Source of the DNA: Alphaproteobacteria bacterium
GTDB taxonomy: Bacteria; Pseudomonadota; Alphaproteobacteria; Rs-D84
Reading direction: 5' to 3'
Length of the DNA stretch: 64,000 nucleotides
Assembly: GCA_017642585.1 (NCBI GenBank)
Contig: JAGCOR010000025.1
Span: forward strand, 19,537 to 83,536
A program made the translations under genes and the position numbers. The notes below the pieces were generated by a model that did no database searches, was not told where the DNA came from, and saw only the letters and a program-made list of their open reading frames with translations. Positions 15,575-38,718 of the stretch are shown piece by piece (within the stretch, counting starts at the first letter, position 1; each line of letters opens with the position of its first letter).

Positions 15575-17092
15575 ATGTTTAAAAAATTATTTTTATTGTT
15601 TGTTTTGTTAACCCCAATTGTTGCAGATGCTGCACCAAAGAATACCAAGAAGGAAGAACCTGTTGTTCATTTGACTGATGACCAGATTTATGCTGAATTG
15701 AAAAAATTGGCTTTGGTGTTCGAAACTGCACGCGATAAATTCGTAGAAGAAGCTGATGAACGCAAAATGTTAGAAGGCGCTATGAATGGTATGTTGGCGG
15801 CTTTGGATCCTCATTCATCCTATTTATCAAAAGAAGATTACAAAGAATTTAATGATAAATCACATGGCGAATTTGGTGGGTTGGGCATTCAAATAACCAG
15901 CGACAAAGGTGCAATTCGTGTTATTTCCCCAATTGATGATACGCCTGCGGCCAAGGCCGGAATTGAAGCGGGCGATTACATTACTCATATTGATGGTGAA
16001 CAGGTATTCGATTTGACTTTGAATCAGGCCGTTAAAAAAATGAAGGGTAAACCAGGAACCAAGGTTAAATTGACCATAGTTCATTCGGGCGAAGAACCCA
16101 AAGAAATCACTTTGAAACGTGCAATTATCAAAGTAAAATCTGTTAAGTATTCTGCCAAAGATGATACTGCGGCGGCAGATGATGATAAATTGGCAAAAAT
16201 CGGTTATATTCGTATATCTGATTTCGGCGCGACAACAACCAAGGAATTGAAAAACGCAATCAAAGATTTGGAAAAGAAAAAAGTTGCGGGTTATGTTTTA
16301 GATTTACGTAATAATCCTGGCGGATATTTAACCGCGGCTGTGGATGTGTCTGATGCATTTTTGGATGGCGGTGAAATTGTTTCCACACGTGGCAAAGAAA
16401 AAACAGACATAGACCGCATGTTTGCTAAATCTGGTGATTTGGTAAATGGAAAACCTGTGGTTGTATTGATAAACCATGGTTCTGCATCTGCATCTGAAAT
16501 TGTGGCGGGGGCATTGCAAGATAATGGTCGTGCAATTATTATGGGATCTCAAAGTTTTGGTAAAGGTTCTGTGCAACAGCAAAAACCTTTGGGTGATGGA
16601 TCTGCAATTCATATTACTATTGCACGTTATTACACACCAAGTGGCAAATCTATTCAAAACGAAGGTATTACACCTGATGTCGAAGTATTGCAGAGTAAAT
16701 TGGAAGTTCTGGAAAAGAAAGAAAGTATGTATTCCGAAGCTACATTTAAGAATTCTTTGAAAAATGATTCTGCCAAGAAAAAAGATTCTGCTAAAAAGAA
16801 AGACAAAAAGGCTGACAAATCAGATGATGATGACGAAGAAGATTTGTTAAGTTTGTCTGATGAAGAAAAAGACGAACGCGATTATCAATTGCAACGCGCA
16901 ATGGATATGGTTCGGGCTATGTCAAAAATAGGCAAGAAAAATATAGAATCAAAAGATAACAAGGAAGATAAAAAATCTGATAAAAAAGACAGCAAGAAAG
17001 ATTCTAAAGCTGAAGTAAAAAAAGAAGATAAAAAATCTGAAACTAAAAAAGAAGATAAGAAATCAGATACAAAAAAAGATAGCAAAAAATAA
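15575..17092 (+). CDS. ctpA: Carboxy-terminal processing protease (S41) with a Lys-rich repetitive tail
   Basis: GGLGIQI, a PDZ region, DLRNNPGG, the GSASASE catalytic-Ser region and SFGKGSVQ. The last ~110 aa are a K/D/S/E low-complexity tail. Confidence 0.9.
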   Translation: MFKKLFLLFVLLTPIVADAAPKNTKKEEPVVHLTDDQIYAELKKLALVFETARDKFVEEADERKMLEGAMNGMLAALDPHSSYLSKEDYKEFNDKSHGEFGGLGIQITSDKGAIRVISPIDDTPAAKAGIEAGDYITHIDGEQVFDLTLNQAVKKMKGKPGTKVKLTIVHSGEEPKEITLKRAIIKVKSVKYSAKDDTAAADDDKLAKIGYIRISDFGATTTKELKNAIKDLEKKKVAGYVLDLRNNPGGYLTAAVDVSDAFLDGGEIVSTRGKEKTDIDRMFAKSGDLVNGKPVVVLINHGSASASEIVAGALQDNGRAIIMGSQSFGKGSVQQQKPLGDGSAIHITIARYYTPSGKSIQNEGITPDVEVLQSKLEVLEKKESMYSEATFKNSLKNDSAKKKDSAKKKDKKADKSDDDDEEDLLSLSDEEKDERDYQLQRAMDMVRAMSKIGKKNIESKDNKEDKKSDKKDSKKDSKAEVKKEDKKSETKKEDKKSDTKKDSKK

Positions 17093-21136: not shown

Positions 21137-21700
21137 ATGCCAACAAAAAAACTTGAATTTAAAAATGGTCAATATGTCGTTTATCCAACCCAGGGTGTTG
21201 GTAAACTGTTGCGTATTGAAGAACAAACAATCGGCGGTCAAAAAATGAAAATGATGGTCATAGATTTCGAAAGAAACCATATGACTTTGCGTGTTCCTTT
21301 GGACAGGGCCGAATTGTCGGGGTTACGCCCATTGGCCAGTGCCAAACAAATGGATGAAGCGATTGCTTCCGCCAAGGGTAAAGCGGGGGCCAAACGTATG
21401 ATTTGGGCGCGTCGTGCCGCACAATACGAAGAAAATATAAATTCTGGTGATCCTATGAAATTGGCAGAGGTTGTTCGTGATTTACAACGCAGAACTGCTA
21501 CAGATACAATGACTTTCTCTGCGCGTCAATTATATTTGCGTGCTTTGGAACGCATGGCTCAAGAATTTGCAGTGTTGCATAAAATGGATTTAGATGAAGC
21601 ATCCGAAAAAATCGAAGATATTTTGGGTGTGCCAAAAGAAATCGATTTGAATGCTGTGGAAGAAGATGACGAAACAGAAGAAGTCGATGAAGAGGAATAA
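21137..21700 (+). CDS. CarD/CdnL-family transcriptional regulator
   Basis: GQYVVYPTQGVGKLLRIEEQTIGGQKMKMMVIDF...MTLRVPLDRAE matches the CarD_CdnL_TRCF N-terminal domain. Acidic C-terminal tail. Confidence 0.85.
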   Translation: MPTKKLEFKNGQYVVYPTQGVGKLLRIEEQTIGGQKMKMMVIDFERNHMTLRVPLDRAELSGLRPLASAKQMDEAIASAKGKAGAKRMIWARRAAQYEENINSGDPMKLAEVVRDLQRRTATDTMTFSARQLYLRALERMAQEFAVLHKMDLDEASEKIEDILGVPKEIDLNAVEEDDETEEVDEEE

Positions 21701-21705
21701 ATAAA

Positions 21706-21738
21706 AGCGCATCAATTTTTGATGCGTTCTTTTTTTCT
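21706..21738 (+). terminator. Rho-independent terminator
   Basis: CGCATCA-atttt-TGATGCG followed by TTCTTTTTTT. Confidence 0.55.
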
Positions 21739-21795
21739 TGTTTTTATTCATTTTTTTCGCAATCATACAATTATAACTAATCAAAGGAAGAAAAA

Positions 21796-22245
21796 ATGGC
21801 AGGCAGTATAAATAAAGTGATATTGGTCGGTAATATAGGTCAAGAACCTCAAGTTCGCCAAATGCAAAGTGGACAAAAGGTGGTCAGTTTTTCCCTGGCT
21901 ACATCAGATCGTTGGCGTGATCGTCAAACTGGTGAACAGAAAGAACAAACAGAATGGCATCGTGTTGTGATTTTTAATCCAAATTTAGTTGAAGTTGCAG
22001 AACGTATGTTGCAAAAAGGTACTAAATTGTATTTGGAAGGTTCACTGCGCACACGCAAATGGCAAAATCAACAGGGTGTTGACACATTTACTACGGAAGT
22101 TGTGTTGAATCCTTATGCTGGTCAAATGGTTATCTTATCTGGTGCAAAGACTATGGACGGTGCATCTGAATCAAACGAACCAGTGGCGGAACAACCACGT
22201 GAAGAAATCAATGTTGATACCATCGCAGATGATATTCCTTTTTAA
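21796..22245 (+). CDS. ssb: Single-stranded DNA-binding protein
   Basis: [14 protein letters not shown]...[11 protein letters not shown]-fold and the acidic tail ending DDIPF. Confidence 0.9.
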
Positions 22246-22260
22246 TAGGAAACAAGATAG

Positions 22261-22289
22261 AAAAAATCGCCAATATGGCGATTTTTTTA
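22261..22289 (+). terminator. Rho-independent terminator
   Basis: ATCGCCA-ata-TGGCGAT followed by TTTTTT. Confidence 0.6.
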
Positions 22290-22318
22290 TTAAAAAACTA
22301 CTTTTGCCATATTATTTA

Positions 22319-22327
22319 TGATATAAT
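22319..22327 (+). promoter_or_regulatory. Candidate extended -10 promoter (TGaTATAAT) for the 22364-26752 operon
   Basis: TGATATAAT lies 37 nt upstream of the TTG start. No good -35 is present. Pattern match only. Confidence 0.35.
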
Positions 22328-22363
22328 TATTCTTGAATTCAGTGGGACCTGAAAGGAGAGAGT

Positions 22364-23566
22364 TTGTTTAAAAAATTTGTGTTTTTTATTTTGTTTTGTG
22401 TGATGTTGTCTGGGGCTTCATATTCAGACGATCTGGCCAATGTCCCCAGTATAGATGCGGAAACAAACGCAACTGCGGTGGAAAACAGTATTAAAATTAA
22501 CGAAGAAGAATTTGATAGAATTGTTCAACAAGTAAAAAGAAGATATACTGATTTTGATTGGGCAAAATTTGATGGTTTGGATGCCGGGGCTAAACGTGTT
22601 GTAATCAAAAATTATTTGGCGCGTATTGCGTTTGATTCAATCAAAGAAAATTATATTAGAAACTTCTATGCCAAAGCAACAGATGGTGTAGAAATCCAAG
22701 AAAGTGGATACAACACAATCTATTTCAATAAATCTGATGCTAAATACAGAACCGAATATATTACAGGAAAAGGTTTGATAGAAAAAGCTGGAAGAAGATG
22801 CAGAACTTGTGATGATGAGGGGAATTTTAGACAGCAAGATGTTGCTTTGTTTGATGAATTAATAGCACAAGAAATTGCAAATGCACCAGTGGCTATGCAT
22901 TGTGAAAAATATTGTATGGAATCTACATCTGAATCAAGTGAGATGGCACGAGAATTAAGAAATGCTTTCGCGGAATTTCAACAAGCTAATGAAGAATACA
23001 CCGCAGAAATACGCAGAACTGGTAGTTCGCGTCAAGAAATTCGTGAAGCTCGTAAAAGATTGCGCGAAGCGGAACGTGCATATAAAAAATTGGTAAAACG
23101 GGCCGGCAGGGAAACAGGCAAAACGTGGTTCTTTAGACCTTATAACACAACGTGCGATTTGGTCAGTGTGGAATGTTGGAACGTTGAATTAAGACCTGAA
23201 ATGTATGAAAAAGTCATGTTTTCCATAGATAAAACTGATGATACGATAGACAGTTTGCATTTTGAGTATGATAATCTGACGAATAATACCCATACGGAAT
23301 CAGATGCATATAGAAATTGTAATTGTGAACAAACCAGCGTGGACGCTTTGGTTAATTGCAATTGTCATATCAGTTTTTATGATGAAATCCAAGATCTGTC
23401 CGCGGTCAGAAAATGGGAAAATCAAGAACGTATAGATATAAAAAATGGTATCAATCAAGACAGAGATGCAAATGGACATTGGAACCACGATTGGGAAAGT
23501 AACACAGTACCAGGGGGCAGAGTGGTTGGACGACAATTGGATTTGAGTGGAACTTCGACAAGATGA
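22364..23566 (+). CDS. Secreted hypothetical protein (400 aa), first gene of a three-gene operon
   Basis: TTG start with AAAGGAGAG 4 nt upstream. Signal peptide MFKKFVFFILFCVMLSGASYS. Paired Cys motifs (CRTC, HCEKYC, CNCE...CNCH). Its stop overlaps the next start (ATGA at 23563-23566). Confidence 0.65.
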   Translation: MFKKFVFFILFCVMLSGASYSDDLANVPSIDAETNATAVENSIKINEEEFDRIVQQVKRRYTDFDWAKFDGLDAGAKRVVIKNYLARIAFDSIKENYIRNFYAKATDGVEIQESGYNTIYFNKSDAKYRTEYITGKGLIEKAGRRCRTCDDEGNFRQQDVALFDELIAQEIANAPVAMHCEKYCMESTSESSEMARELRNAFAEFQQANEEYTAEIRRTGSSRQEIREARKRLREAERAYKKLVKRAGRETGKTWFFRPYNTTCDLVSVECWNVELRPEMYEKVMFSIDKTDDTIDSLHFEYDNLTNNTHTESDAYRNCNCEQTSVDALVNCNCHISFYDEIQDLSAVRKWENQERIDIKNGINQDRDANGHWNHDWESNTVPGGRVVGRQLDLSGTSTR

Positions 23567-24582
23567 AAATAAAATTTATTTTATTTTTGTTGTTATTATC
23601 TGTCAGGGGCGTTTATGCCGCTGAGGCTGATTTTGATGCAATGTCGATTATAGATTTATATGAACATGCAGAAGCTGTGAATTATGATTATGAAAATTTA
23701 AAGAAAAATTATGATAATGCAAAAAACAAAGAACAATCTTTGGCAAACAGAACCTTGACCGCTGCAACCACTGCCGCAACCGGATTGGGAATGATGGAAT
23801 TAATGATGGGCAAAGCGGAACAAAAAGCGGATGCAGATGCCGAACAAGATATGGCGGCATACATGGCAACAATGCGTTGCACATATGCGGGTGGTAAATC
23901 TGTGAAGGCCGGCCCCGAAGAAATAGAATTACCTGGTGGCAACGATGGTAATTTGATGTCATACCGCAGTGAATATATAGCATTGGCAAAAAGTTTGAAA
24001 GAACGTAAAACAGCAATGGACATGTTACCAGGTATAGAAAGTGAAGAGATATTAGATAAAGCAGAAATGGGGTTATACGATGATGAAAGTAAGGGTATAA
24101 CGGGTGGAACCTATGCTTCATTGTATCGCGCCAAGATAGGCAGCGAAGAAGATCAGTCTAAGATAGATGCTGACAAAGAAAAATCTGCTAAACGTGTTAA
24201 GTATGGTGCCATAGCAGCAGCTGGGGGAACAGCATTGGGTATAGGTGGTAACAGTTTGATAAATGGTAAATTGGGAGAATTGATAAAGAACAGAAAAGAT
24301 AAGAAATCTGGGAATAAAACAGATGATGATGTAGTTAAACAATTAAAAGAAGGTTTATCTTCAGCGGGAATGACAAATGTAGATAAATTAGATTTTAGTA
24401 ATTTAGATTTAAGTGGATTGAAAGATAAAATAGGTAATGTAGATTTTGGATCATTGTCATCCAGTTTAAAGGGAAAAGATGCCAGTCAGTTATTAAACAC
24501 ATCGAACGCCGAAGGATTCTCGTCTTCGTTTGGCAGTATGTTAGGTAACAGTGGAGAATTGGGCGGATTGTTTGGAAATTAA
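23563..24582 (+). CDS. Secreted protein (339 aa) consisting mostly of the conserved C-terminal module (copy 1)
   Basis: Signal peptide MKIKFILFLLLLSVRGVYA. From aa ~45 it aligns with the C-terminal ~295 aa of ORF 24632-26752. Two Gly/Ala hydrophobic segments and a Gly-rich end ...GSMLGNSGELGGLFGN. Confidence 0.7.
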   Translation: MKIKFILFLLLLSVRGVYAAEADFDAMSIIDLYEHAEAVNYDYENLKKNYDNAKNKEQSLANRTLTAATTAATGLGMMELMMGKAEQKADADAEQDMAAYMATMRCTYAGGKSVKAGPEEIELPGGNDGNLMSYRSEYIALAKSLKERKTAMDMLPGIESEEILDKAEMGLYDDESKGITGGTYASLYRAKIGSEEDQSKIDADKEKSAKRVKYGAIAAAGGTALGIGGNSLINGKLGELIKNRKDKKSGNKTDDDVVKQLKEGLSSAGMTNVDKLDFSNLDLSGLKDKIGNVDFGSLSSSLKGKDASQLLNTSNAEGFSSSFGSMLGNSGELGGLFGN

Positions 24583-24590
24583 AAAAATAT
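23773..24590. repeat. Copy 1 of a ~0.8-kb near-identical direct repeat (partner at 25943-26760, offset 2170 bp)
   Basis: Base-by-base comparison shows long identical runs with scattered single-base differences. Identity begins abruptly at ...GCCGCAACCGGATTGGG and ends just past the stop codon. Confidence 0.85.
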
Positions 24591-24631
24591 CTGTATAAAA
24601 ATTTTTTATTTTATAGTATAATAATTTTGTT

Positions 24632-26752
24632 GTGAGAGGGATAATAAAGACATTTTTATCTATAATGTTTTTTGCCTGGGTGTTTTGTATGCCTGGGGTT
24701 GCTGGTGTTGGCAATGTTGATAGCAGATTTTATGTAGATAAACAAATGTGGGCAACGGCACCGTATAAAAATTTTGTGCATTTATATGGGTGGTTATCAA
24801 ATACAGGAAGTTCTTGCACAGCACAATATGTTTCAAAAAATATAATTGTATCAGCAGGGCATTGTTTAAAAGATAATGCAAGATATGAAGTACATAATTA
24901 CGCTGGCGACAAGATTGATTTAATGTTGCTTGAAACGGGGTACAAAGGAGTACTTGAAGAAGATGGGGATTGGGCTGTATTTTTGGTTAAAGACCCAAAA
25001 TATTACAGCGATAGTTTTTTCAATCTGAAGGTTCCTAATGTTGAAAATACCAGCATAGGTGTTTTGAATGCAGGATGGGGATTTGTCAGAGTTTTGGAAG
25101 ATTGGGAAATTCAAAAAATACAAGAAATTTTGCCGACAATTGATAACAGGTTAGACAGAAAAGAGTTCTTTAGGATTTTGGATGAAAAGTTGGTAGAGGC
25201 TAATATCAGACCTATCAGAGAAACTATGGTTCAAAGTTTAAAGGCGAGTGAATGTATGATATCTGCCCATAGATACAACAATGTATCTCCTGATGTTCTG
25301 CCTTCGACGTGTGATTCATGGCAGGGTAACAGTGGCGGGGGATATGTTGCCAGGGGTGGTAATGATCTGTATGGGGTATGTTCTTTTGGACCTGCTGATG
25401 TTGCAATTGAATTTACAGAGTCTTCTGAAAATCGTGCGTTTCTTGCATCATCTAAACAATTTGTTAATGTTGTAAATAAATACATAGATAAATTCAGTAA
25501 CCCAGAATATACGGCATGTTTTGTTCTTGGAAAAAAATGGAAACGTAATACTTGTAAATGTCAAGGTACAGAGACTTGGGATAATGTGAATTACAAATGT
25601 GTGCCAGCCGAAAGTGCACCGCCATCATCATCAGATGGATCAAATGATAACACGGATAATACCGCAGACGATGAAAATGGTATTACAGAGGGAACAGGTG
25701 TAGTTACCGATAAAGCCATAGATGATTTAACAAGAGATGTTGATGATTCTGGAAAACGTCTTGATAAAAAGAAAGCAAAAATTTCATCTGGGGTAACCAA
25801 GAAAGATGTATTTGATATTATTGATAATTGGGCTGATTACGAAGTAAAAACAGAACAATTAGAGCAACTGAAGAAAGCATATGAGGAAGCCAAAGCGAAA
25901 GAACAGTCCATGGGGAATAAATTATTAACTGCAGCCACAGTTGCCGCAACCGGATTGGGAATGATGGAATTAATGATGGGCAAAGCGGAACAAAAAGCGG
26001 ATGCAGATGCCGAACAAGATATGGCGGCATACATGGCAACAATGCGTTGCACATATGCGGGTGGAAAATCTGTAAAGGCCGGCCCCGAAGAAATAGAATT
26101 ACCTGGTGGCAACGATGGTAATTTGATGAAATACCGCAGTGAATATATAGCATTGGCAAAAAGTTTGAAAGAACGCAAAACAGCCATGGATATGTTACCA
26201 GGTATAGAAAGTGAAGAGATATTAGATAAAGCAGAAATGGGATTATATGATGATGAAAGCAAGGGTATAGAAAGCGGAACATACGCATCATTGTATAGAG
26301 CGAAACAGGGCAGTGAAGAAGACCAAAAGAAGATAGATGCTGATAAAGCCAAATCAGAAAAGAGAGTTAAGTATGGTGCCATAGCAGCAGCTGGTGGAAC
26401 AGCATTGGGCATAGGTGGTGACAGTTTGATAAATGGTAAATTGGGAGAATTGATAAAGAACAGAAAAGATAAAAAATCTGGGAATAAAACAGATGATGAT
26501 GTAGTTAAACAATTAAAAGAAGGTTTATCTTCAGCTGGAATGACAAATGTGGATAAATTAGATTTTAGTAATTTAGATTTAAGTGGATTAAAAGATAAAA
26601 TAGGTAATGTAGATTTTGCATCTATGTCATCCAGTTTAAAGGGTAAAGATGCCAGTCAGTTATTAAACACATCGAATGCGGAAGGATTCTCGTCTTCGTT
26701 TGGCAGTATGTTGGGTAACAGCGGTGGATTGGGCGGATTATTTGGAAATTAA
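24632..26752 (+). CDS. Secreted trypsin-like serine protease fused to the conserved C-terminal module (copy 2), 706 aa
   Basis: GTG start gives a signal peptide with an R/K n-region (ATG 24665 is an alternative). His in VSAGHC (aa 77), candidate Asp in GDWAVFLV, Ser in CDSWQGNSGGGY (aa 234). S/D/N/T-rich linker. The C-terminal ~295 aa are almost identical to ORF 23563-24582. Confidence 0.7.
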   Translation: MRGIIKTFLSIMFFAWVFCMPGVAGVGNVDSRFYVDKQMWATAPYKNFVHLYGWLSNTGSSCTAQYVSKNIIVSAGHCLKDNARYEVHNYAGDKIDLMLLETGYKGVLEEDGDWAVFLVKDPKYYSDSFFNLKVPNVENTSIGVLNAGWGFVRVLEDWEIQKIQEILPTIDNRLDRKEFFRILDEKLVEANIRPIRETMVQSLKASECMISAHRYNNVSPDVLPSTCDSWQGNSGGGYVARGGNDLYGVCSFGPADVAIEFTESSENRAFLASSKQFVNVVNKYIDKFSNPEYTACFVLGKKWKRNTCKCQGTETWDNVNYKCVPAESAPPSSSDGSNDNTDNTADDENGITEGTGVVTDKAIDDLTRDVDDSGKRLDKKKAKISSGVTKKDVFDIIDNWADYEVKTEQLEQLKKAYEEAKAKEQSMGNKLLTAATVAATGLGMMELMMGKAEQKADADAEQDMAAYMATMRCTYAGGKSVKAGPEEIELPGGNDGNLMKYRSEYIALAKSLKERKTAMDMLPGIESEEILDKAEMGLYDDESKGIESGTYASLYRAKQGSEEDQKKIDADKAKSEKRVKYGAIAAAGGTALGIGGDSLINGKLGELIKNRKDKKSGNKTDDDVVKQLKEGLSSAGMTNVDKLDFSNLDLSGLKDKIGNVDFASMSSSLKGKDASQLLNTSNAEGFSSSFGSMLGNSGGLGGLFGN

Positions 26753-26760
26753 AAAAACAC
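25943..26760. repeat. Copy 2 of the ~0.8-kb near-identical direct repeat
   Basis: See copy 1. The flanks diverge on both sides. Confidence 0.85.
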
Positions 26761-33459: not shown

Positions 33460-36400
33460 ATGACTAAGCATTTTTTACTTGGTATTTCAATATTACCCGC
33501 ATTGTTAGTGATGCCTGCAATGGCAGTTGATGTGGCAAATTTAGATGAATTGATGGTTGCATTGCAAACTGGCGGTAACATTAATCTGACAGATGATATT
33601 GTGATTAATGGCGGAATGCCTGTTGTTGCAAACACTGTTATAGACGGTGGCAATCATGGTGTAACACCTATGACATTTGCTGTCCCCAGTAAAATTGGTT
33701 CTGTAAATGCGTATCAAGGAACTTTGGGGCAAGGAACCATAACTGGTATAGATGATGTTTTTTATTATGCAAACAGCACATTAGCCGTTGGTAATAAAAT
33801 ATATTCAGATTCTGGCAAAACAGACGAAGTTGGCACAATTACATTTAAAAGTGGCACGATTTATTCTGTTGGTCAGGCAACAACCGCGACATTGACACGC
33901 GATCCATCACAAGACGTGTTCGCTTCTAATAAAACTTATTTGGCATTTACTACATCATCAAATGAAACTGTTTATGCATATATAAGTGGTGCCAATAAAA
34001 CAGAAGCAGATTTGACAGCATCTACATTGTTCTATTCAACTGCTGCCACAACCAATCCAGTTGGAATGCAGGGTGCTACATTGGTTGAAGATGGTGTATT
34101 CTCTACAAACCAATATGATACTTTTGATTTCTCTGTAACTGGTAAACCTCATGATATTTATGAAATAAATGGTGATACAGTATATTATGATTATAACAAA
34201 ACGCCAACTTATTACTATTCAAGTCCTGCGTTAGCTTCAGATACAAAGGCATATATCGTTTCTGGTAGTTCTGTGCAGTCATTTAAGAATAATTTGAATG
34301 TTGCTGCTGGGACAGATTTAACTGTTCAAAACATGGAATTTAACGGAATACAAAATTCAACATCTTTAGAAAAGGGTGGAGTCATATATTCTGATAATTC
34401 GGCTTCTGAAACAAAAAATAATATTACATTAGATAATGTTACTATGCAGAATAATATTGCAGGTAACGGTTTAGTTTATACGAAGAATTCAAATTTGGTT
34501 GTATCAGATATAGAAGCGACAGGTAATACTGGTAGTGTTTTTTATATATTGGGTTCTGATGCAAATATAAGTGGGACTTTTATCGGTAATCACGCATTAT
34601 CTGGTGGTGCGATAGACGTAACTTCCGGTAGTAATTTAACAATTTCTGGTTTGTTCCAGGAAAATTATGCAAGCACAAATGTTGCTAATGCTGCGGGTGC
34701 TGTAAATTCTGCACAAGGCGCTTTGACAATTTTGGATGGCACACAATTCAAGAACAATTATTCTAAAAACGCGAGTGCGGGTGCTGTAAATGTTTCTGGA
34801 TTATCAACGACACCAGGTAAAGGTGGATATTTAACCGTTGGTAATAATGTTATATTTGACGGCAATACAGCAGGTTTTCAAAGCTTTGATTCAAATGTTG
34901 TGACAAAGACAACGGCAAATGGCGGTGCTATGGTAATTGGTGCGTTGATGGAATCACCTACATTTGGCACAGGGGTCAAATTTAAAAACAACAGAGCGGT
35001 AAACCAAGGTGGTGCGTTGGCATTAACAGGCGCTGCAGCTGATGATGCTGGTATGATTTTCAATAATGGTATTGAATTTGATAACAATTCAGCGTCGCAG
35101 GGTGGTGCGTTTGCTATAACTGCAAATATCAAAACAACATTGGATGGTTTGTCATTTACAAACAATCATGCAAATGGCGGGGACAATGCGATTGGTGGTG
35201 CATTGGTTGTATCGGGCAGTGTAACAAATCAAACTACACCTGAAAATGCAGCCAGCAGAGTGAAAACATTGACTATCACCAACACTTCATTTGAAGATAA
35301 CCAGTCAGATACCGCTGCTGGTGCGATTGGTCAAACAATGATTACTGCTTTCAATGGTAGTAAATATTCACAAGGTATGACCATAGATGTTTTGAACAGC
35401 ACTTTCACAGATAATACAGCAGGCGCAGAAGGTGGTGCGATAGTTTCTGATGCTATATTAAATGTGACAGGTTCTGCATTTGAAGGAAACCAGACGACCG
35501 GTACAGTAATCGGGGTAAATTCAACAGATTCTAATGAAGGTGGTGGTGCAATATTTATGTATGATGACAGTGTTGCGACCATAACAAATTCTACATTTAC
35601 ATCTAATGAATCTGGTACTTGGGGTGGTGCGATTTCTACACGTGGAATTTCATCCGCTCAACCAGGTGCGAATTCTTCTTTGACAGTAAACGGTGGTACA
35701 TTTACAGATAATAGCGCTGTATATGGTGGTGCGATTGCGAATTCTTTGCAAAATACTGTAAATGACCAAGAAGAAATCACAAAATATGGTGCTGTGGTTT
35801 CTGGGGCAACATTCAAAGAAAACAGTGCCACACAATTTGGTGGTGCGATTTACAATGTCGGGGATATAACAGTTAATAACACTGTGTTTGGTGGGGTTGA
35901 TTTAACAGATCCACAAAACCCTGTGTCATTGGGCAATACCGCATTGAAGGGTGGCGCGATTCTTAACTCTGGCAGTTTGACACTGTCTGGCGGTTCATTT
36001 ACAGGTAATACTGCAACAGGAACAGGAAAAGATGCAGCAAACAAAGATATGGGTGGTGGTGCGATTTATTCCGACCTGTCCACAAGTGTAACCGATATCG
36101 ATAATGTTAGTTTTGTTGGAAATTCAGCAAATTATATCGGTGGTGCTGTGTATGTATATTCTGGTACTGCCAATATAAATAATTCCACATTTACAGATAA
36201 TTCTGCTAACTGGGGCGGTGCGATTTATACAAAAGCACGTCCTGCGGATGGACAGCAGATTTCTGATTTGGTAATTAACAATTCAACATTTACCAATAAT
36301 AGTGCAAAAGGTGTTGGTGCGGTTGGTGTTATGAGAAAGGGTATTATTACAAATACTACTTTCACTGACAACCATGCAACAGATTCCACAGATGACGGGG

Positions 36401-38718
36401 CGGGTGCTTTGTTCTTGGGTGCTGAATCTTATACAACACTGACAGGCGGTAGTTTTGTTGATAATGCTTCTGCTTCTGCTGCTGGTGCTATTGGTACACG
36501 TGATTTTGGTCAGGGTAATAACGTTGATGCAAAGTTAGACATCAATGGCACACGCTTTGAACATAATATTGCAGCAACAAGTGGTGGTGCGATTGATAAC
36601 TATTTCTATAATGATGCCGCAAATGATGGTTATGTAAATGTTTCAAACGCAACATTTACATTGAATGGTGCAGCAAATGGTGGTGCGATTTATAACCATG
36701 CTGTAGTGGCACAAACTGGAAATATGAGTATCAATAATTCTTCATTTACCAGTAACACGGCAACTGTTGCCGGTGGTGCCTTGTATAACGAAGGTGAATT
36801 GACATTTGATGGTTCGACAAGATTCACTACTAATACAGCGGCATTGCAAGGTGGTGCATTGTTTAATTCTGATTCTGGTGAAGTTTTGTTCAAGAAATTG
36901 GCAACATTTACCGGTAACCAAGCTACTGGCACCGCAACAACCGAGGGTGGTGCAATTAACAATGCCGGCACAGTTACATTTGAAAAGAATGCTGTGTTCA
37001 CAAACAACCAAGCCGACGCAGGTGGTGCAATAGTTAACAACGGTGGTACTTTGACATTGACAGAAGCATCCGTGTTCCAATCTAACCATGCGAATCTTGT
37101 GGGTGGTGCTTTGTTAAATAATAGTGGTACAGTTAGTTTGACTGATGCAACATTCAGAAACAATAGTGCTACAGCTGCTGGTGGTGCAATTGCTAACGAT
37201 AGCGGAACAATCACATTAAATGGAACAAATACATTTGTTGGTAATACCGCAAATGGTCATGCAAACGATATTGATAGTCATGGTACTTTGAATATCGCGT
37301 CTGGTACAACAACATTAAGTGGTGGTATTACAGGTGGTCCATCTGCTACTTTGAATATTGCAGAAGGTGCAACTTTGAATATTGGCACTGCATCTGTGGC
37401 TCAAAACACAATCAATTTGAATGGAACAATGTTGGCTACATTGCGTGGTGGGGATGATGCACAAATCACAGCAACCAGTGCATTCAATGGTGACGGTGAA
37501 TTGAAGTTGGCATTTGATGGTGAAGGTTTATATCATGTATTTGGTGGTGAAGTGTTTGCCAAAGAAAATGGTATAGATTTGTCCAGTGTTGTTTATGATT
37601 TGACCTGGTCAGACGATGGCAGAGATGTTACTGCAGCTTTGAAATCTGTTGAAGATTTGGCCGAAGAAAATCATTTAACAACTGAAACAGCTGCCACAAT
37701 TGTTAACCTGACAAGTTCTACATCCGATGTGTTGAATGATTTGTCTGTGACTATCCAAGAAAAATTGGCAACAGGTACAGAAGAAGCCAGACAGGAAGTT
37801 GAACAAGCTCAAGTTGCTATCAACCCTGAAAAAGAATCTGTGGTTCAATCTGTAACATCATCAGTTCAAAATGCTGTAAGCTCTTTGGCAATGTCTCGTA
37901 TGTCTATGCCAATGGGTGGACGTAACGGTGGTGACGCAAAAGTAACTGGCCGTGGTGTTTGGGTCAACGGTATATTCAACAAAGCAAAACAAAATGATGC
38001 GTTTAATGGATATACTCGTGGATTCGCAGCCGGTTTGGATGGAACTATCAATAATAAATGGACAATTGGTGCAGGTTATTCGTTTGCTCATTCCGATGTC
38101 GACGGATCAGCACGTGATACAGAAATCGAATCGTCTTCTGTGTTCGTGTACGGTCAATACAGACAGAAAGCATGGTATGTAAACGGTGTAGCTAACTATA
38201 CTATGGCTGATTATTCAGAACAAGGAACAGCGTTGGGAACGCCTGTGACTGCTGATTATGATGTTAAATCATATGGTGCAAATGTCGCAACAGGTTATCG
38301 TTTCGCTGGCGGTATAACACCTGAATTGTCATTACGTTATTTGCATATCGACGGATCTGATTATGTAAATTCGTTGGGTATCAAAAACGAATTGAAAGAA
38401 TCTGATTATTTAACTGCAGCTTTGGGAACAAAATATGCTTTCCGTATCAAAGTAACAGAAGCATTTAGATTACGTCCTGAATTAAGTTATGCTGTTAAAT
38501 ATGATATGTTGTCTGATAAACAGGTCGCAAATGTAACAATGCCAGGTTTGAATTCCTATGCGTTGGATGGTGACAGATTGTCCCGTATCGCTGGTGAATT
38601 CGGTATTGGATTGGGCGCAAGATACAAAGGATTGGATGTGTCTTTGAACTATGATATCGAAGCACGTGAAGATTACACTTCCCAAACAGGTCGCCTGAAA
38701 TTCAGATACAATTTCTAA
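33460..38718 (+). CDS. Autotransporter with Pmp-type (GGA[ILV] / FxxN) repeat passenger domain
   Basis: Start at ATG 33460 (AAAGGAGAG upstream). Signal peptide MTKHFLLGISILPALLVMPAMA. About 25 GGAI/GGAL/GGAV motifs alternate with F-x-x-N motifs. C-terminal beta-barrel ends ...GRLKFRYNF. Confidence 0.85.
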   Translation: MTKHFLLGISILPALLVMPAMAVDVANLDELMVALQTGGNINLTDDIVINGGMPVVANTVIDGGNHGVTPMTFAVPSKIGSVNAYQGTLGQGTITGIDDVFYYANSTLAVGNKIYSDSGKTDEVGTITFKSGTIYSVGQATTATLTRDPSQDVFASNKTYLAFTTSSNETVYAYISGANKTEADLTASTLFYSTAATTNPVGMQGATLVEDGVFSTNQYDTFDFSVTGKPHDIYEINGDTVYYDYNKTPTYYYSSPALASDTKAYIVSGSSVQSFKNNLNVAAGTDLTVQNMEFNGIQNSTSLEKGGVIYSDNSASETKNNITLDNVTMQNNIAGNGLVYTKNSNLVVSDIEATGNTGSVFYILGSDANISGTFIGNHALSGGAIDVTSGSNLTISGLFQENYASTNVANAAGAVNSAQGALTILDGTQFKNNYSKNASAGAVNVSGLSTTPGKGGYLTVGNNVIFDGNTAGFQSFDSNVVTKTTANGGAMVIGALMESPTFGTGVKFKNNRAVNQGGALALTGAAADDAGMIFNNGIEFDNNSASQGGAFAITANIKTTLDGLSFTNNHANGGDNAIGGALVVSGSVTNQTTPENAASRVKTLTITNTSFEDNQSDTAAGAIGQTMITAFNGSKYSQGMTIDVLNSTFTDNTAGAEGGAIVSDAILNVTGSAFEGNQTTGTVIGVNSTDSNEGGGAIFMYDDSVATITNSTFTSNESGTWGGAISTRGISSAQPGANSSLTVNGGTFTDNSAVYGGAIANSLQNTVNDQEEITKYGAVVSGATFKENSATQFGGAIYNVGDITVNNTVFGGVDLTDPQNPVSLGNTALKGGAILNSGSLTLSGGSFTGNTATGTGKDAANKDMGGGAIYSDLSTSVTDIDNVSFVGNSANYIGGAVYVYSGTANINNSTFTDNSANWGGAIYTKARPADGQQISDLVINNSTFTNNSAKGVGAVGVMRKGIITNTTFTDNHATDSTDDGAGALFLGAESYTTLTGGSFVDNASASAAGAIGTRDFGQGNNVDAKLDINGTRFEHNIAATSGGAIDNYFYNDAANDGYVNVSNATFTLNGAANGGAIYNHAVVAQTGNMSINNSSFTSNTATVAGGALYNEGELTFDGSTRFTTNTAALQGGALFNSDSGEVLFKKLATFTGNQATGTATTEGGAINNAGTVTFEKNAVFTNNQADAGGAIVNNGGTLTLTEASVFQSNHANLVGGALLNNSGTVSLTDATFRNNSATAAGGAIANDSGTITLNGTNTFVGNTANGHANDIDSHGTLNIASGTTTLSGGITGGPSATLNIAEGATLNIGTASVAQNTINLNGTMLATLRGGDDAQITATSAFNGDGELKLAFDGEGLYHVFGGEVFAKENGIDLSSVVYDLTWSDDGRDVTAALKSVEDLAEENHLTTETAATIVNLTSSTSDVLNDLSVTIQEKLATGTEEARQEVEQAQVAINPEKESVVQSVTSSVQNAVSSLAMSRMSMPMGGRNGGDAKVTGRGVWVNGIFNKAKQNDAFNGYTRGFAAGLDGTINNKWTIGAGYSFAHSDVDGSARDTEIESSSVFVYGQYRQKAWYVNGVANYTMADYSEQGTALGTPVTADYDVKSYGANVATGYRFAGGITPELSLRYLHIDGSDYVNSLGIKNELKESDYLTAALGTKYAFRIKVTEAFRLRPELSYAVKYDMLSDKQVANVTMPGLNSYALDGDRLSRIAGEFGIGLGARYKGLDVSLNYDIEAREDYTSQTGRLKFRYNF
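34330..37270 (+). repeat. Array of coding Pmp-type repeats (beta-helix passenger)
   Basis: Recurrent units such as ...FTDNSA-x(2-5)-GGAIY... (FTSNES..WGGAIST, FKENSA..FGGAIYN, FTNNQA..AGGAIVN and others). Confidence 0.8.
37940..38715 (+). other. Autotransporter beta-barrel translocator domain
   Basis: GRGVWVNGIFNKAKQND...GFAAGLDG...WTIGAGYSFAHSD... followed by alternating beta-strand patterning and a terminal aromatic residue. Confidence 0.8.

What the first reader, a model, noticed from the sequence alone, without database searches (positions are those of the whole stretch)
23773..26760. ~0.8-kb near-identical direct repeat at a 2170-bp offset with razor-sharp boundaries inside two adjacent genes
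DNA at 23773-24590 and 25943-26760 is almost identical, with only scattered substitutions. Two examples are GGTGGTAAATCTGTGAAGG versus GGTGGAAAATCTGTAAAGG, and ATGTCATACCGC versus ATGAAATACCGC.

Immediately upstream, similarity drops to the protein level only (LKKNYDNAKNKEQS versus LKKAYEEAKAKEQS) and then disappears. Downstream it ends a few bases after the stop codons.

Such nucleotide-level identity beside diverged flanks points to recent or ongoing gene conversion, or to a cassette-like recombination substrate for exchanging N-terminal heads. It is also a place where short-read assemblies can collapse or chimerise.
Basis: seen in the sequence. Interest (0 to 1): 0.6.

Follow-up and report, generated by a model that had tools for sequence, protein, structure and literature searches.

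The report
Gene-conversion repeat in paralogous secreted-protein genes
Two neighbouring genes of an uncultured, small-genome gut bacterium (Candidatus Enterousia group) share a near-identical 0.8-kb tail because recombination keeps copying this part between family members, and the same repeat lets strains lose or swap the variable front ends of these secreted proteins.

Summary
The repeat is real. Window 23773-24587 and 25943-26757 (offset 2170) are 92.8% identical over 807 coding bases. They form the C-terminal part of gene A (23563-24582, 339 aa) and gene B (24632-26752, 706 aa, trypsin-like head).

Identity is mosaic: 97%, then a 108-nt patch at 71%, then 95%. Synonymous divergence is 0.12-0.19 in the near-identical tracts and saturated in the patch and in the homologous 140 nt upstream.

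Independent assemblies hold every unique junction, so this is not an assembly duplication.

A and B belong to an uncharacterised family of more than 400 secreted proteins. Every member that carries a source name comes from uncultured gut Alphaproteobacteria. A conserved ~190-aa core with no Pfam, NCBIfam or PDB match carries varied heads.

Both genes are old. B is the resident gene of the SSB-DUF1015 slot in related species. A belongs to a conserved C+A gene pair found elsewhere in other species and inserted here. Their near-identity therefore reflects gene conversion, which also involves a third paralog outside the window.

Same-genome paralogs are each other's closest cores in about 9 of 14 multi-copy genomes.

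Related strains show reshuffled A/B differences, a haplotype lacking one 2170-bp unit (no B head), and a different head at the same slot.

The mechanism is known; the family is new.

The parts
22296..24583 (+). C+A gene pair, present here as an insertion between the SSB terminator and B's native upstream region
   Evidence: In sister-species contig L170, positions 1-1117 match window 21181-22295 (92% nt) and 1114-1644 match window 24584-25108, with nothing in between. L171 reads PFOR-CarD-SSB-B-type-DUF1015 with no C or A.
22364..23566 (+). Gene C, a 400-aa secreted protein with no family assignment. Its stop overlaps A's start (ATGA). It is the conserved upstream partner of A-type genes.
   Evidence: ORF list. 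C is 47% aa identical to the 470-aa protein upstream of P0038 in L004 and 32% to the 458-aa protein upstream of P0044 in L087. It has no significant Pfam or NCBIfam hit: all matches fall far below the curated cut-offs.
23563..24582 (+). Gene A, 339 aa: signal peptide, short A-specific N-terminus, family core, tail
   Evidence: The N-terminal 70 codons are 68% aa and 70-80% nt identical to the positional ortholog P0038.
23635..23772 (+). Old A/B homology outside the conversion tract (54% nt identity, dS saturated, dN 0.54). Within it, 23713-23772 of A is 82-100% identical to the D-type paralogs (L001, L178) but only 60-69% to B.
23773..24587 (+). Repeat copy 1 (core plus tail of A, through the stop codon plus 5 nt)
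24088..24195 (+). Diverged patch inside the repeat (71% A versus B). B's version matches the D-type core of L001 at 84-100% over most of the patch (45-nt windows up to 24148) and falls to 62% at its 3' end. A's version is a different allele, and it sits in gene B on the related-strain contig L174.
24588..24631 (+). A-B intergenic spacer. It is B's native upstream region, with a TATAAT-like box (TATAGTATAATAATTTTG) shared with L170.
   Evidence: sequence comparison; promoter function is inferred
24632..26752 (+). Gene B, 706 aa: signal peptide, trypsin-like serine-protease head, Cys-rich motif, low-complexity linker, coiled-coil pre-core, family core, tail
   Evidence: Pfam PF00089, E 4e-9 to 8e-9, 36-37 bits against a cut-off of 20.6. 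The motifs SAGHC, GDWAVF and GNSGGG are visible in the translation. Orthologs P0121-P0131 have the same architecture.
25943..26757 (+). Repeat copy 2 (core plus tail of B)
26758..26785 (+). Hairpin CACCGACAATTTGTCGGTG followed by a T-run: a likely terminator of B. It is unique to copy 2's flank.
   Evidence: Read directly from the sequence; function is inferred
26796..28034 (-). DUF1015 gene, the conserved right-hand flank of the variable slot
   Evidence: Pfam PF06245, E 5e-115; synteny in L007 and L171
21796..22245 (+). SSB gene, the conserved left-hand flank of the variable slot

Best explanation
What the repeat is. It is the shared C-terminal module (a conserved core of about 190 aa plus a tail of about 100 aa) of two adjacent paralogs. 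Both belong to a multi-copy family of secreted proteins in a Candidatus Enterousia-like (order Rs-D84) gut alphaproteobacterium.

History of the locus.
- B, with the trypsin-like head, is the old resident gene between SSB and DUF1015.
- The C+A pair was inserted upstream of B in this lineage.
- Since then, repeated non-reciprocal homologous recombination (gene conversion) has homogenised the module. It acts between A, B and at least one further paralog, D, a gene with a Cys-rich-repeat head next to ThrRS outside the window.
- Tracts of different length and from different donors left the observed mosaic. Going 5' to 3': A resembles D from 23713, A equals B from 23773, an unconverted or differently converted patch lies at 24088-24195, and A equals B again up to the stop codon.

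Edges. The 3' edge is where homology ends. The 5' edge is a tract end.

Consequences. Because the two copies are direct repeats 2170 bp apart, the same homology also supports unequal recombination. Some strains have lost one unit, and with it the protease head. Another strain carries a different head on the same core at this slot.

Shown versus inferred.
- Shown: the mosaic, the dS contrast, the orthology of both genes, within-genome clustering across the family, and the strain polymorphisms.
- Inferred: the enzymology (RecA-type homologous recombination); the direction of individual events; that the core is a common envelope-anchoring or assembly module displaying variable heads; and that homogenisation is favoured because the cores must fit a shared partner or each other.
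For: Divergence contrast. dS is 0.12 (codons 71-175) and 0.19 (codons 212-339). It is saturated in codons 25-70 and in the patch. Third-position differences are 7/105 and 14/128 against 31/46 and 20/36, with Fisher p from 1.6e-14 to 8e-8.

Mosaic donor map against L001 (D-type) and P0038 (the A ortholog).

A is an old gene. The C+A pair is conserved in two other species, where the A-type core of one (P0038) is only 67% aa and about 70% nt identical to window A.

B is an old gene at this very locus. L171 has the synteny PFOR-CarD-SSB-B-DUF1015. L170 has flanks 92% nt identical and a B head 53% aa identical.

Third paralog. A loose end joins the repeat at 23716. The 300-nt unitig sits at about 3 times single-copy depth. 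Contigs at single-copy depth match the L001 locus at 89-94%.

Family-wide concerted evolution. Among 77 cores from about 60 species, same-genome paralogs are nearest neighbours in about 9 of 14 multi-copy genomes. Tracts of 544-605 nt at 87-98.6% identity lie between unlinked contigs whose flanks show no similarity.

Strain-level turnover.
- In L174, the end of the A tail (within 85 nt of unique sequence) carries B's letters at six A/B-distinguishing sites, and its B core carries the A-type patch.
- In X10, the A core differs from the window by about 10% while the A head differs by less than 1%. That core is collapsed with a D-type paralog at twice single-copy depth.

Structural variants. X8 and X10 lack everything between the A core and the B tail. 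L178 has another head at the same start codon.

The two-copy arrangement is confirmed by junction contigs in three runs from two studies and by JGI contig L174.
Against: No raw or long reads were available. Logan contigs collapse the repeat and may pop bubbles. As a result, the phasing of the internal patch to the A or B head cannot be verified, either in the window or in L174. Part of the apparent strain reshuffling could be assembler path-switching.

The right edge of the C+A insertion coincides with A's stop codon. This could mean that the shared tail arose during the insertion event itself (a duplication or fusion) rather than by later conversion.

In some genomes paralog cores are not homogenised, for example Horse_feces296 at 65% nt. 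Conversion is therefore episodic rather than universal.

The function of the core is unknown. The AlphaFold models are weak (pLDDT 56 and 66).
Confidence: 0.8

Rival explanations
1. A single recent partial duplication or fusion. When the C+A pair landed upstream of B, or when B's 3' part was duplicated, one copy of the core and tail was created. It has simply not had time to diverge, and no ongoing conversion occurs.
For: The right edge of the C+A insertion (about 24583) falls at A's stop codon, and the repeat ends 5 nt later. The closest B ortholog, P0121, has a different tail. So the shared tail could date from one event.
Against: Divergence along the module is strongly non-uniform (dS 0.12, then saturated, then 0.19). 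B's patch is D-type while A's is another allele, and A's 23713-23772 is D-type while B's is not. At least three separate exchanges with two donors are therefore needed. The A/B-distinguishing sites differ between strains. The same core-limited homogenisation recurs between unlinked loci in other genomes.
Confidence: 0.1
2. A programmed variation system: a dedicated mechanism that switches heads or core alleles at an expression site, as in pilE/pilS, vlsE or msp2.
For: The family is modular. The SSB-DUF1015 slot holds different gene contents in close relatives: C+A+B, C+A only, another head, B only, or unrelated secreted proteins in L007.
Against: A, B and the D-type genes are all complete ORFs with signal peptides and their own starts. 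The 64-kb window holds no silent truncated cassettes, only two copies. The ORFs listed between 19 and 31 kb include no recombinase or diversity-generating element. Ordinary homologous recombination suffices.
Confidence: 0.07
3. An assembly artefact: one real copy was duplicated, or the contig is chimeric across a collapsed repeat.
For: Short-read unitigs collapse 23772-24071 into one contig at 2-3 times single-copy depth. Phasing of the internal patch is unverified.
Against: Four unique junctions are each covered by error-free contigs:
- C and the A head into the repeat (22044-23784);
- the A tail through the spacer and B head into the repeat (24513-25971, 0 mismatches in X1, X2 and X3);
- the B tail into the DUF1015 flank (26683-26823);
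- copy-specific variants of 24390-24504 at equal depth.
In addition, JGI contig L174 independently spans the A tail, B and DUF1015.
Confidence: 0.03

Closest known systems
Concerted evolution of the 3' segments of Helicobacter pylori outer-membrane-protein paralogs (babA/babB/babC, homA/homB)
   Same: Paralogous surface-protein genes have variable functional parts and a conserved C-terminal segment. That segment clusters by strain rather than by gene because of intragenomic gene conversion. Chimeric genes occur, and locus occupancy varies between strains (PMC2795765; PMC4552749). The window shows the same three signatures.
   Different: The protein family is unrelated: there is no Hop-family beta-barrel and no Pfam match. 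Here the two copies are tandem direct repeats, so deletion of a unit is also seen. The organism is an uncultured commensal or symbiont with a genome of about 1 Mb. No phase-variable repeats were seen.
Homogenising gene conversion between duplicated bacterial genes in general (for example tufA/tufB and rRNA operons; reviewed by Santoyo and Romero 2005, cited in PMC2795765)
   Same: Nucleotide-level identity is confined to the homologous segment, with sharp tract ends. RecA-type recombination is the presumed mechanism.
   Different: Those cases involve whole housekeeping genes under strong constraint. Here only one module of mosaic secreted proteins is homogenised, and several core alleles circulate in the population.
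Cassette-based antigenic variation (Neisseria pilE/pilS, Borrelia vlsE, Anaplasma msp2)
   Same: Gene conversion moves sequence between family members, and conserved segments flank the variable parts and guide recombination.
   Different: There is no expression-site versus silent-cassette architecture, because all copies are complete genes. The converted part here is the conserved module, so the effect is homogenising rather than diversifying.
Trypsin-like (S1) serine proteases: the head of B only
   Same: Pfam PF00089 scores above its curated cut-off. His, Asp and Ser motifs lie in the expected order.
   Different: The head is fused to an uncharacterised C-terminal core and tail. It evolves fast: 53% aa identity to the ortholog in a species whose flanking genes are 92% nt identical.

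Membership tests
Concerted evolution by intragenomic gene conversion | Paralogs within a genome are more alike than orthologs between genomes, for the segment in question only | tested here: met
   The A and B cores are 87% (whole core) to 97% nt identical. The A core is about 70% identical to its positional ortholog P0038. The B core is 62-93% nt identical to L170's in 45-nt windows, against 92% for the flanking genes. Same-genome nearest neighbours occur in about 9 of 14 multi-copy genomes.
Concerted evolution by intragenomic gene conversion | An abrupt change of synonymous divergence at tract boundaries inside continuous homology | tested here: met
   dS is saturated in codons 25-70 and falls to 0.12 from codon 71. 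An internal patch is saturated. Fisher p runs from 1.6e-14 to 8e-8.
Concerted evolution by intragenomic gene conversion | Mosaic tracts that trace to different donor paralogs | tested here: met
   A 23713-23772 and B 24058-24147 both match the D-type core (L001, L178), and they do so independently of each other.
Concerted evolution by intragenomic gene conversion | Conversion events seen as differences between closely related strains or lineages | tested here: inconclusive
   L174 and X10 show reshuffled or replaced core alleles next to near-identical unique flanks. All of these data are short-read assemblies or unitigs. Only the six sites within 85 nt of unique sequence are safely phased.
Cassette-type programmed antigenic variation (pilE/pilS, vlsE, msp2) | One expression site plus several silent, truncated donor cassettes | tested here: not met
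   The window holds only two copies. Both are complete ORFs with signal peptides. The third paralog and the family members in other genomes are also full-length genes.
Cassette-type programmed antigenic variation (pilE/pilS, vlsE, msp2) | High-frequency switching within a clone | not testable with these tools
   This needs a culture or deep long-read data from one strain.
Peptidase S1 (trypsin) family: head of B | A match to the family profile above the curated threshold | tested here: met
   PF00089 scores 36-37 bits against a cut-off of 20.6.
Peptidase S1 (trypsin) family: head of B | His-Asp-Ser catalytic triad in the canonical motifs | tested here: inconclusive
   SAGHC, GDWAVF and GNSGGG appear in the right order in the translation. 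This was judged by eye, with no structural model, and the Pfam alignment covers only part of the domain.
Known envelope-anchoring or secretion modules (autotransporter barrel, T9SS C-terminal domain, glycine-zipper OMP domains) | A profile or fold match of the conserved core or tail | tested here: not met
   Pfam gives no hit even at E = 10. NCBIfam gives only noise. The PDB sequence profile gives nothing below E 0.36. Foldseek gives nothing below E 1.6 on a weak model.
Assembly duplication artefact | Only one set of unique junctions and single-copy depth | tested here: not met
   Both sets of junctions are present in independent runs and in JGI contig L174. The repeat interior sits at 2-3 times single-copy depth.

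The most novel reading that the evidence does not exclude
The ~190-aa core may be a new kind of envelope module. It consists of two long helices whose Gly/Ala-rich hydrophobic halves could pair as a membrane-embedded hairpin, flanking an acidic domain of about 130 aa. Reduced-genome Enterousia could use it to display or deliver interchangeable heads: protease, carboxypeptidase-regulatory-like, and Cys-rich repeats. Selection would keep all cores in a cell identical because they co-assemble or dock to one partner, such as the C-like protein. Recombination in the core would then serve as the lineage's routine way of re-assorting heads between loci and strains.
Probability: 0.2. Interest if true: 0.65.

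Novelty: new member of a known kind. Interest (0 to 1): 0.45.

Why it matters
Mechanism and setting. Homogenising gene conversion and repeat-mediated deletion are textbook processes. The interest lies in where they act. Candidatus Enterousia and the wider Rs-D84 order are uncultured gut bacteria with genomes of about 0.75-1.6 Mb and unknown lifestyle (PMC12306168).

What the locus reveals. These bacteria keep a multi-copy family of secreted proteins, built from one uncharacterised conserved module and interchangeable heads, and they recombine it actively. Families of this kind mark the host- or partner-facing surface in Helicobacter, Mycoplasma and Anaplasma. That makes this family a concrete starting point for asking how these organisms interact with their surroundings.

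Practical point. The locus is a documented trap for short-read assembly and strain phasing in gut metagenomes.

Tried and rejected
Family assignment of the core.
- Pfam at E up to 10, NCBIfam, and a PDB sequence-profile search all gave nothing usable.
- Two AlphaFold2 runs were weak. The whole of A with 47 sequences gave pLDDT 56. The core alone with 122 sequences gave pLDDT 66.
- Foldseek against the PDB returned only noise, with E of 1.6 or more (RIFIN, LHC proteins, OspC). I draw no conclusion from these matches.

Hydropathy. Apart from the signal peptide, only one weak hydrophobic segment appears in A (residues 215-233, mean 1.2). A firm membrane topology could not be called.

Strain variation from unitigs. 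I first read the mixed A/B letters in the collapsed 300-nt unitig of X1-X4 as strain variation. I rejected this as unsafe, because bubble popping and a third copy could give the same picture.

Horizontal transfer of the core. I considered transfer between species to explain the 86% nt match to L001. I rejected it once contigs at the window organism's depth matched the whole L001 locus at 89-94%. L001 is therefore simply the ortholog of a third paralog.

Synteny via DUF1015. Most relatives have rearranged this slot.

Other searches. A look for target-site duplications or mobile-element ends at the C+A insertion edges found only AT-rich, promoter-like similarity. A paper search found nothing on this protein family.
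Full report
**1. The observation**

The window has about 37% G+C. Two adjacent plus-strand ORFs lie in the region:
- gene A, 23563-24582, 339 aa;
- gene B, 24632-26752, 706 aa.

At an offset of exactly 2170 bp, identity rises from 60-69% to 100% at 23773. It stays high to 24587, five bases past the TAA stop codons, and then falls to chance level.

Over codons 71-339 of A there are 58 differences in 807 nt (92.8% identity). The longest identical run is 123 nt, and no permutation of the differences reached that length (0 of 20,000). The window holds only these two copies.

31 of the 58 lie in the patch 24088-24195, which is 71% identical (0 of 5,000 permutations reached this).

**2. Divergence profile**

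Nei-Gojobori estimates:

| Codons of A | Window coordinates | nt identity | dS |
|---|---|---|---|
| 25-70 (homologous at protein level) | 23635-23772 | 54% | saturated (dN 0.54) |
| 71-175 | 23773-24087 | 97% | 0.12 |
| 176-211 (patch) | 24088-24195 | 71% | saturated |
| 212-339 | 24196-24579 | 95% | 0.19 |

Third-position differences are 31/46, 7/105, 20/36 and 14/128 in the same order. Fisher p values range from 1.6e-14 to 8e-8.

That is met. The internal heterogeneity also rules out a single event.

**3. Not an assembly duplication**

Logan contigs of public gut and bovine-gut metagenome runs hold every unique junction without mismatches:
- 22044-23784: C and the A head running into the repeat;
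- 24513-25971: the end of the A tail, the spacer, the B head and the start of copy 2 (runs X1, X2, X3; two studies);
- 26683-26823: the B tail running into the DUF1015 flank;
- both copy-specific versions of 24390-24504, at similar depth.

JGI metagenome contig L174 (6161 nt, 95.4% identical) independently spans the A tail, the spacer, all of B, and DUF1015. L175 spans SSB, C and the A head into the core.

**4. What the genes are**

A, B and the upstream gene C (22364-23566, whose stop overlaps A's start) all begin with signal-peptide-like sequences.

B's head matches Pfam Trypsin above the curated cut-off. It carries SAGHC, GDWAVF and GNSGGG motifs in the expected order.

The shared module has no Pfam, NCBIfam or PDB-sequence relative. 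A database search found more than 400 homologs. Every one that carries a source name is from uncultured Alphaproteobacteria, and the related loci fetched later are almost all gut or rumen MAGs of Alphaproteobacteria, several labelled Candidatus Enterousia.

Family members share:
- a core of about 190 aa (…KEQSLANRTLTAxTTAATGIGGMEL…RCTY…PGGND…GLYDDE…SLYRA…GNSLINGKLG…);
- very different N-terminal heads, such as carboxypeptidase-regulatory-like domains, Cys-rich repeats or trypsin;
- different tails.

Structure prediction was weak (pLDDT 56 and 66). It shows mainly long helices, and Foldseek found nothing.

Enterousia and the order Rs-D84 are described as gut bacteria with genomes of about 1 Mb or less (PMC12306168).

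**5. Both genes are old, so the identity is secondary**

*A-type genes.* They sit in a conserved C-like plus A-type pair in other species. The upstream proteins in L004 and L087 are 47% and 32% aa identical to C. A's first 150 nt are 70-80% identical to the L004 ortholog P0038, yet P0038's core is only about 60-78% identical to A's.

*B-type genes.* Genes with a trypsin head plus core exist in several species, with heads 35-53% aa identical.
- In L171 the gene order is PFOR, a 142-aa gene, CarD, SSB, B-type, DUF1015, a 243-aa gene. This is the window's order without C and A.
- In L170, a sister species whose CarD-SSB region is 92% nt identical, SSB is followed directly by B. L170 aligns to window 21181-22295 and then to 24584 onward.

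So window 22296-24583 (C plus A) is an insertion next to the resident gene B. The near-identity of the A and B modules arose afterwards or during that event, not by descent from a recent whole-gene duplication.

**6. Mosaic structure and a third paralog**

Sliding-window comparison gives the following map:

| Segment | Relationship |
|---|---|
| 23563-23712 | A resembles P0038 |
| 23713-23772 | A is 82-100% identical to D-type genes (the L001 1075-aa protein, L178) but 60-69% to B |
| 23773-24057 | A equals B |
| 24058-24147 | B is 87-100% identical to L001, while A is 71-78% to both |
| 24148-24177 | A resembles L001 more than B does |
| 24193-24582 | A equals B; D-type genes are unrelated |

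The runs that hold the window also contain:
- a second upstream path joining the repeat at 23716 (…ALKDKTDAYK…, the D-type junction);
- contigs at the same single-copy depth that match the L001 locus (ThrRS, a 255-aa gene, the D gene) at 89-94%.

The organism therefore has at least a third family member sharing the tract. At least three exchanges with two donors are needed to explain the mosaic.

**7. Concerted evolution across the family**

I compared 77 cores from about 60 species genomes.
- In about 9 of 14 genomes with two or more copies, the nearest core at nucleotide level is a paralog from the same genome.
- Core identities between same-genome paralogs: JAZLJO 98.6%, JAFXPG 93%, JAZURV 91%, CACYHY 87.5%, the window 87%, JAZROL 82%.
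- The matching tracts are 544-605 nt long and confined to the core. They lie between unlinked contigs whose 3-kb flanks show no similarity.
- P0049 (JAFXPG) and P0032 (JAZROL) both lie upstream of rplI-rpsR-rpsF, so they are positional orthologs. Yet each core resembles its own genome's paralog.
- In some genomes, such as Horse_feces296, the cores are not homogenised. The process is episodic.

**8. Variation between strains**

(a) *Reshuffled differences in L174.* The last 85 nt of the A tail, which are safely linked to the unique spacer, carry B's letters at six sites where the window's A and B differ. The alleles at 24449-24454 are swapped between A and B relative to the window. Its B core carries the window's A-type allele at about 38 distinguishing sites, including the whole patch. 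The core part of this result could be an assembler path switch.

(b) *Core replacement in X10.* The A head differs from the window at 3 of 340 positions. The core contig (23710-24209) differs at 48 of 500 positions, sits at twice single-copy depth, and joins both the A head and a D-type head. In that strain A and D share a different core allele.

(c) *One-gene haplotype.* X8 and X10, both read completely, hold C, the A head, the core, and a tail joined to the DUF1015 flank. They hold nothing at 80% identity or more for 24219-25970. In X10 the unitig graph leaves no room for B. Since B is ancestral at this locus, this is best read as deletion of one 2170-bp unit by recombination between the direct repeats.

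(d) *A different head at the same slot.* JGI contig L178 is 98.6% identical to the window through CarD and SSB and up to the first codons of C. It then encodes a different head (a signal peptide, a carboxypeptidase-regulatory-like region and Cys-rich repeats) fused to the core from 23710 onward. Its unique part is absent from X1, X3, X8 and X10, so it is not a simple chimera of their loci.

(e) *The slot as a hotspot.* In L007, a more distant relative, the same slot holds two unrelated secreted proteins.

**9. Interpretation**

The best explanation is homogenising gene conversion among at least three paralogs of a modular secreted-protein family. The tandem direct repeats additionally act as substrates for unit loss and head replacement.

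This works like the 3' segments of the H. pylori babA/babB and homA/homB genes, which cluster by strain because of intragenomic conversion and which form chimeras and variable locus occupancy (PMC2795765; PMC4552749). The proteins are unrelated, however.

It is not a cassette system of the pilE/pilS type, because all copies are complete genes.

What the core does is unknown. I infer a shared envelope-anchoring or assembly role from four features:
- the signal peptides;
- the Gly/Ala-rich hydrophobic helix ends;
- the conserved C-like partner gene;
- the fact that only this module is kept uniform.

This is inference, not a result.

**10. Limits**

All population data are short-read assemblies or unitigs. 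Phasing across the 300-nt identical stretch is unverified, for the window itself as well. The exact route by which C+A was inserted is also open: its right edge coincides with A's stop codon.

**11. Verdict**

The mechanism is known, and it acts here on a new, uncharacterised family in a poorly known lineage. It is of moderate interest.

Noticed in passing
window 26796-28034 (-): The DUF1015 gene is 71-79% aa identical to homologs in many Bacteroidales, Alistipes and Rikenellaceae genomes, and 84-94% to other Enterousia-like MAGs. That is unusually close for different phyla and suggests transfer between gut lineages.
   Followed up: no
window 31411-31720, with a degenerate copy at 30725-30879, next to tRNA-Gln at 31725-31798 (-): A 155-nt unit is present as two tandem copies (95% identical), plus a third copy at 64% identity, directly beside the only tRNA gene in the window. 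Parts of this region are conserved in L008, L171 and L174.
   Followed up: no
window 33439-38718 (+): A 1759-aa ORF carries Chlamydia polymorphic-membrane-protein repeats (PF02415, E 2e-25). Its recurring GGTGGTGCGAT motifs produce internal DNA repeats. This is another large probable surface protein in a ~1-Mb genome.
   Followed up: partly
window 24632-25800 versus L170 1195-2400: B's protease head is only 53% aa and about 75% nt identical to its ortholog in a species whose neighbouring CarD-SSB genes are 92% nt identical. The head evolves much faster than its surroundings.
   Followed up: partly
L007 5566-8258; window slot 22246-26795: The interval between SSB and DUF1015 is a hotspot. It holds C+A+B here, B alone in L171 and L170, and two unrelated secreted proteins in L007 (306 aa with Gly-rich hydrophobic segments, and 589 aa Cys-rich).
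   Followed up: partly
L171 6935-6965 and 8990-9020: In L171 nearly the same 30-nt hairpin terminator (AAAAAACCGCCAATrTGGCGGTTTTTT) follows both SSB and the B-type gene. Such repeated terminators might offer short homology for rearrangements at this slot.
   Followed up: no
window 16932-17074: A lysine-rich low-complexity coding repeat (units of 27-33 nt, KKDxK-like) lies at the C-terminal end of the S41/PDZ protease gene 15575-17092.
   Followed up: no
L004 (JAKSTB contig 19) versus L001 (JAKSTB contig 5): Two contigs of the Horse_feces296 MAG relate very differently to the window organism. The C+A locus is about 69% nt identical. The ThrRS/D-gene locus is 89-94% identical to contigs at the window organism's depth. 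Either surface-gene loci diverge very fast, or the bin mixes two species.
   Followed up: no
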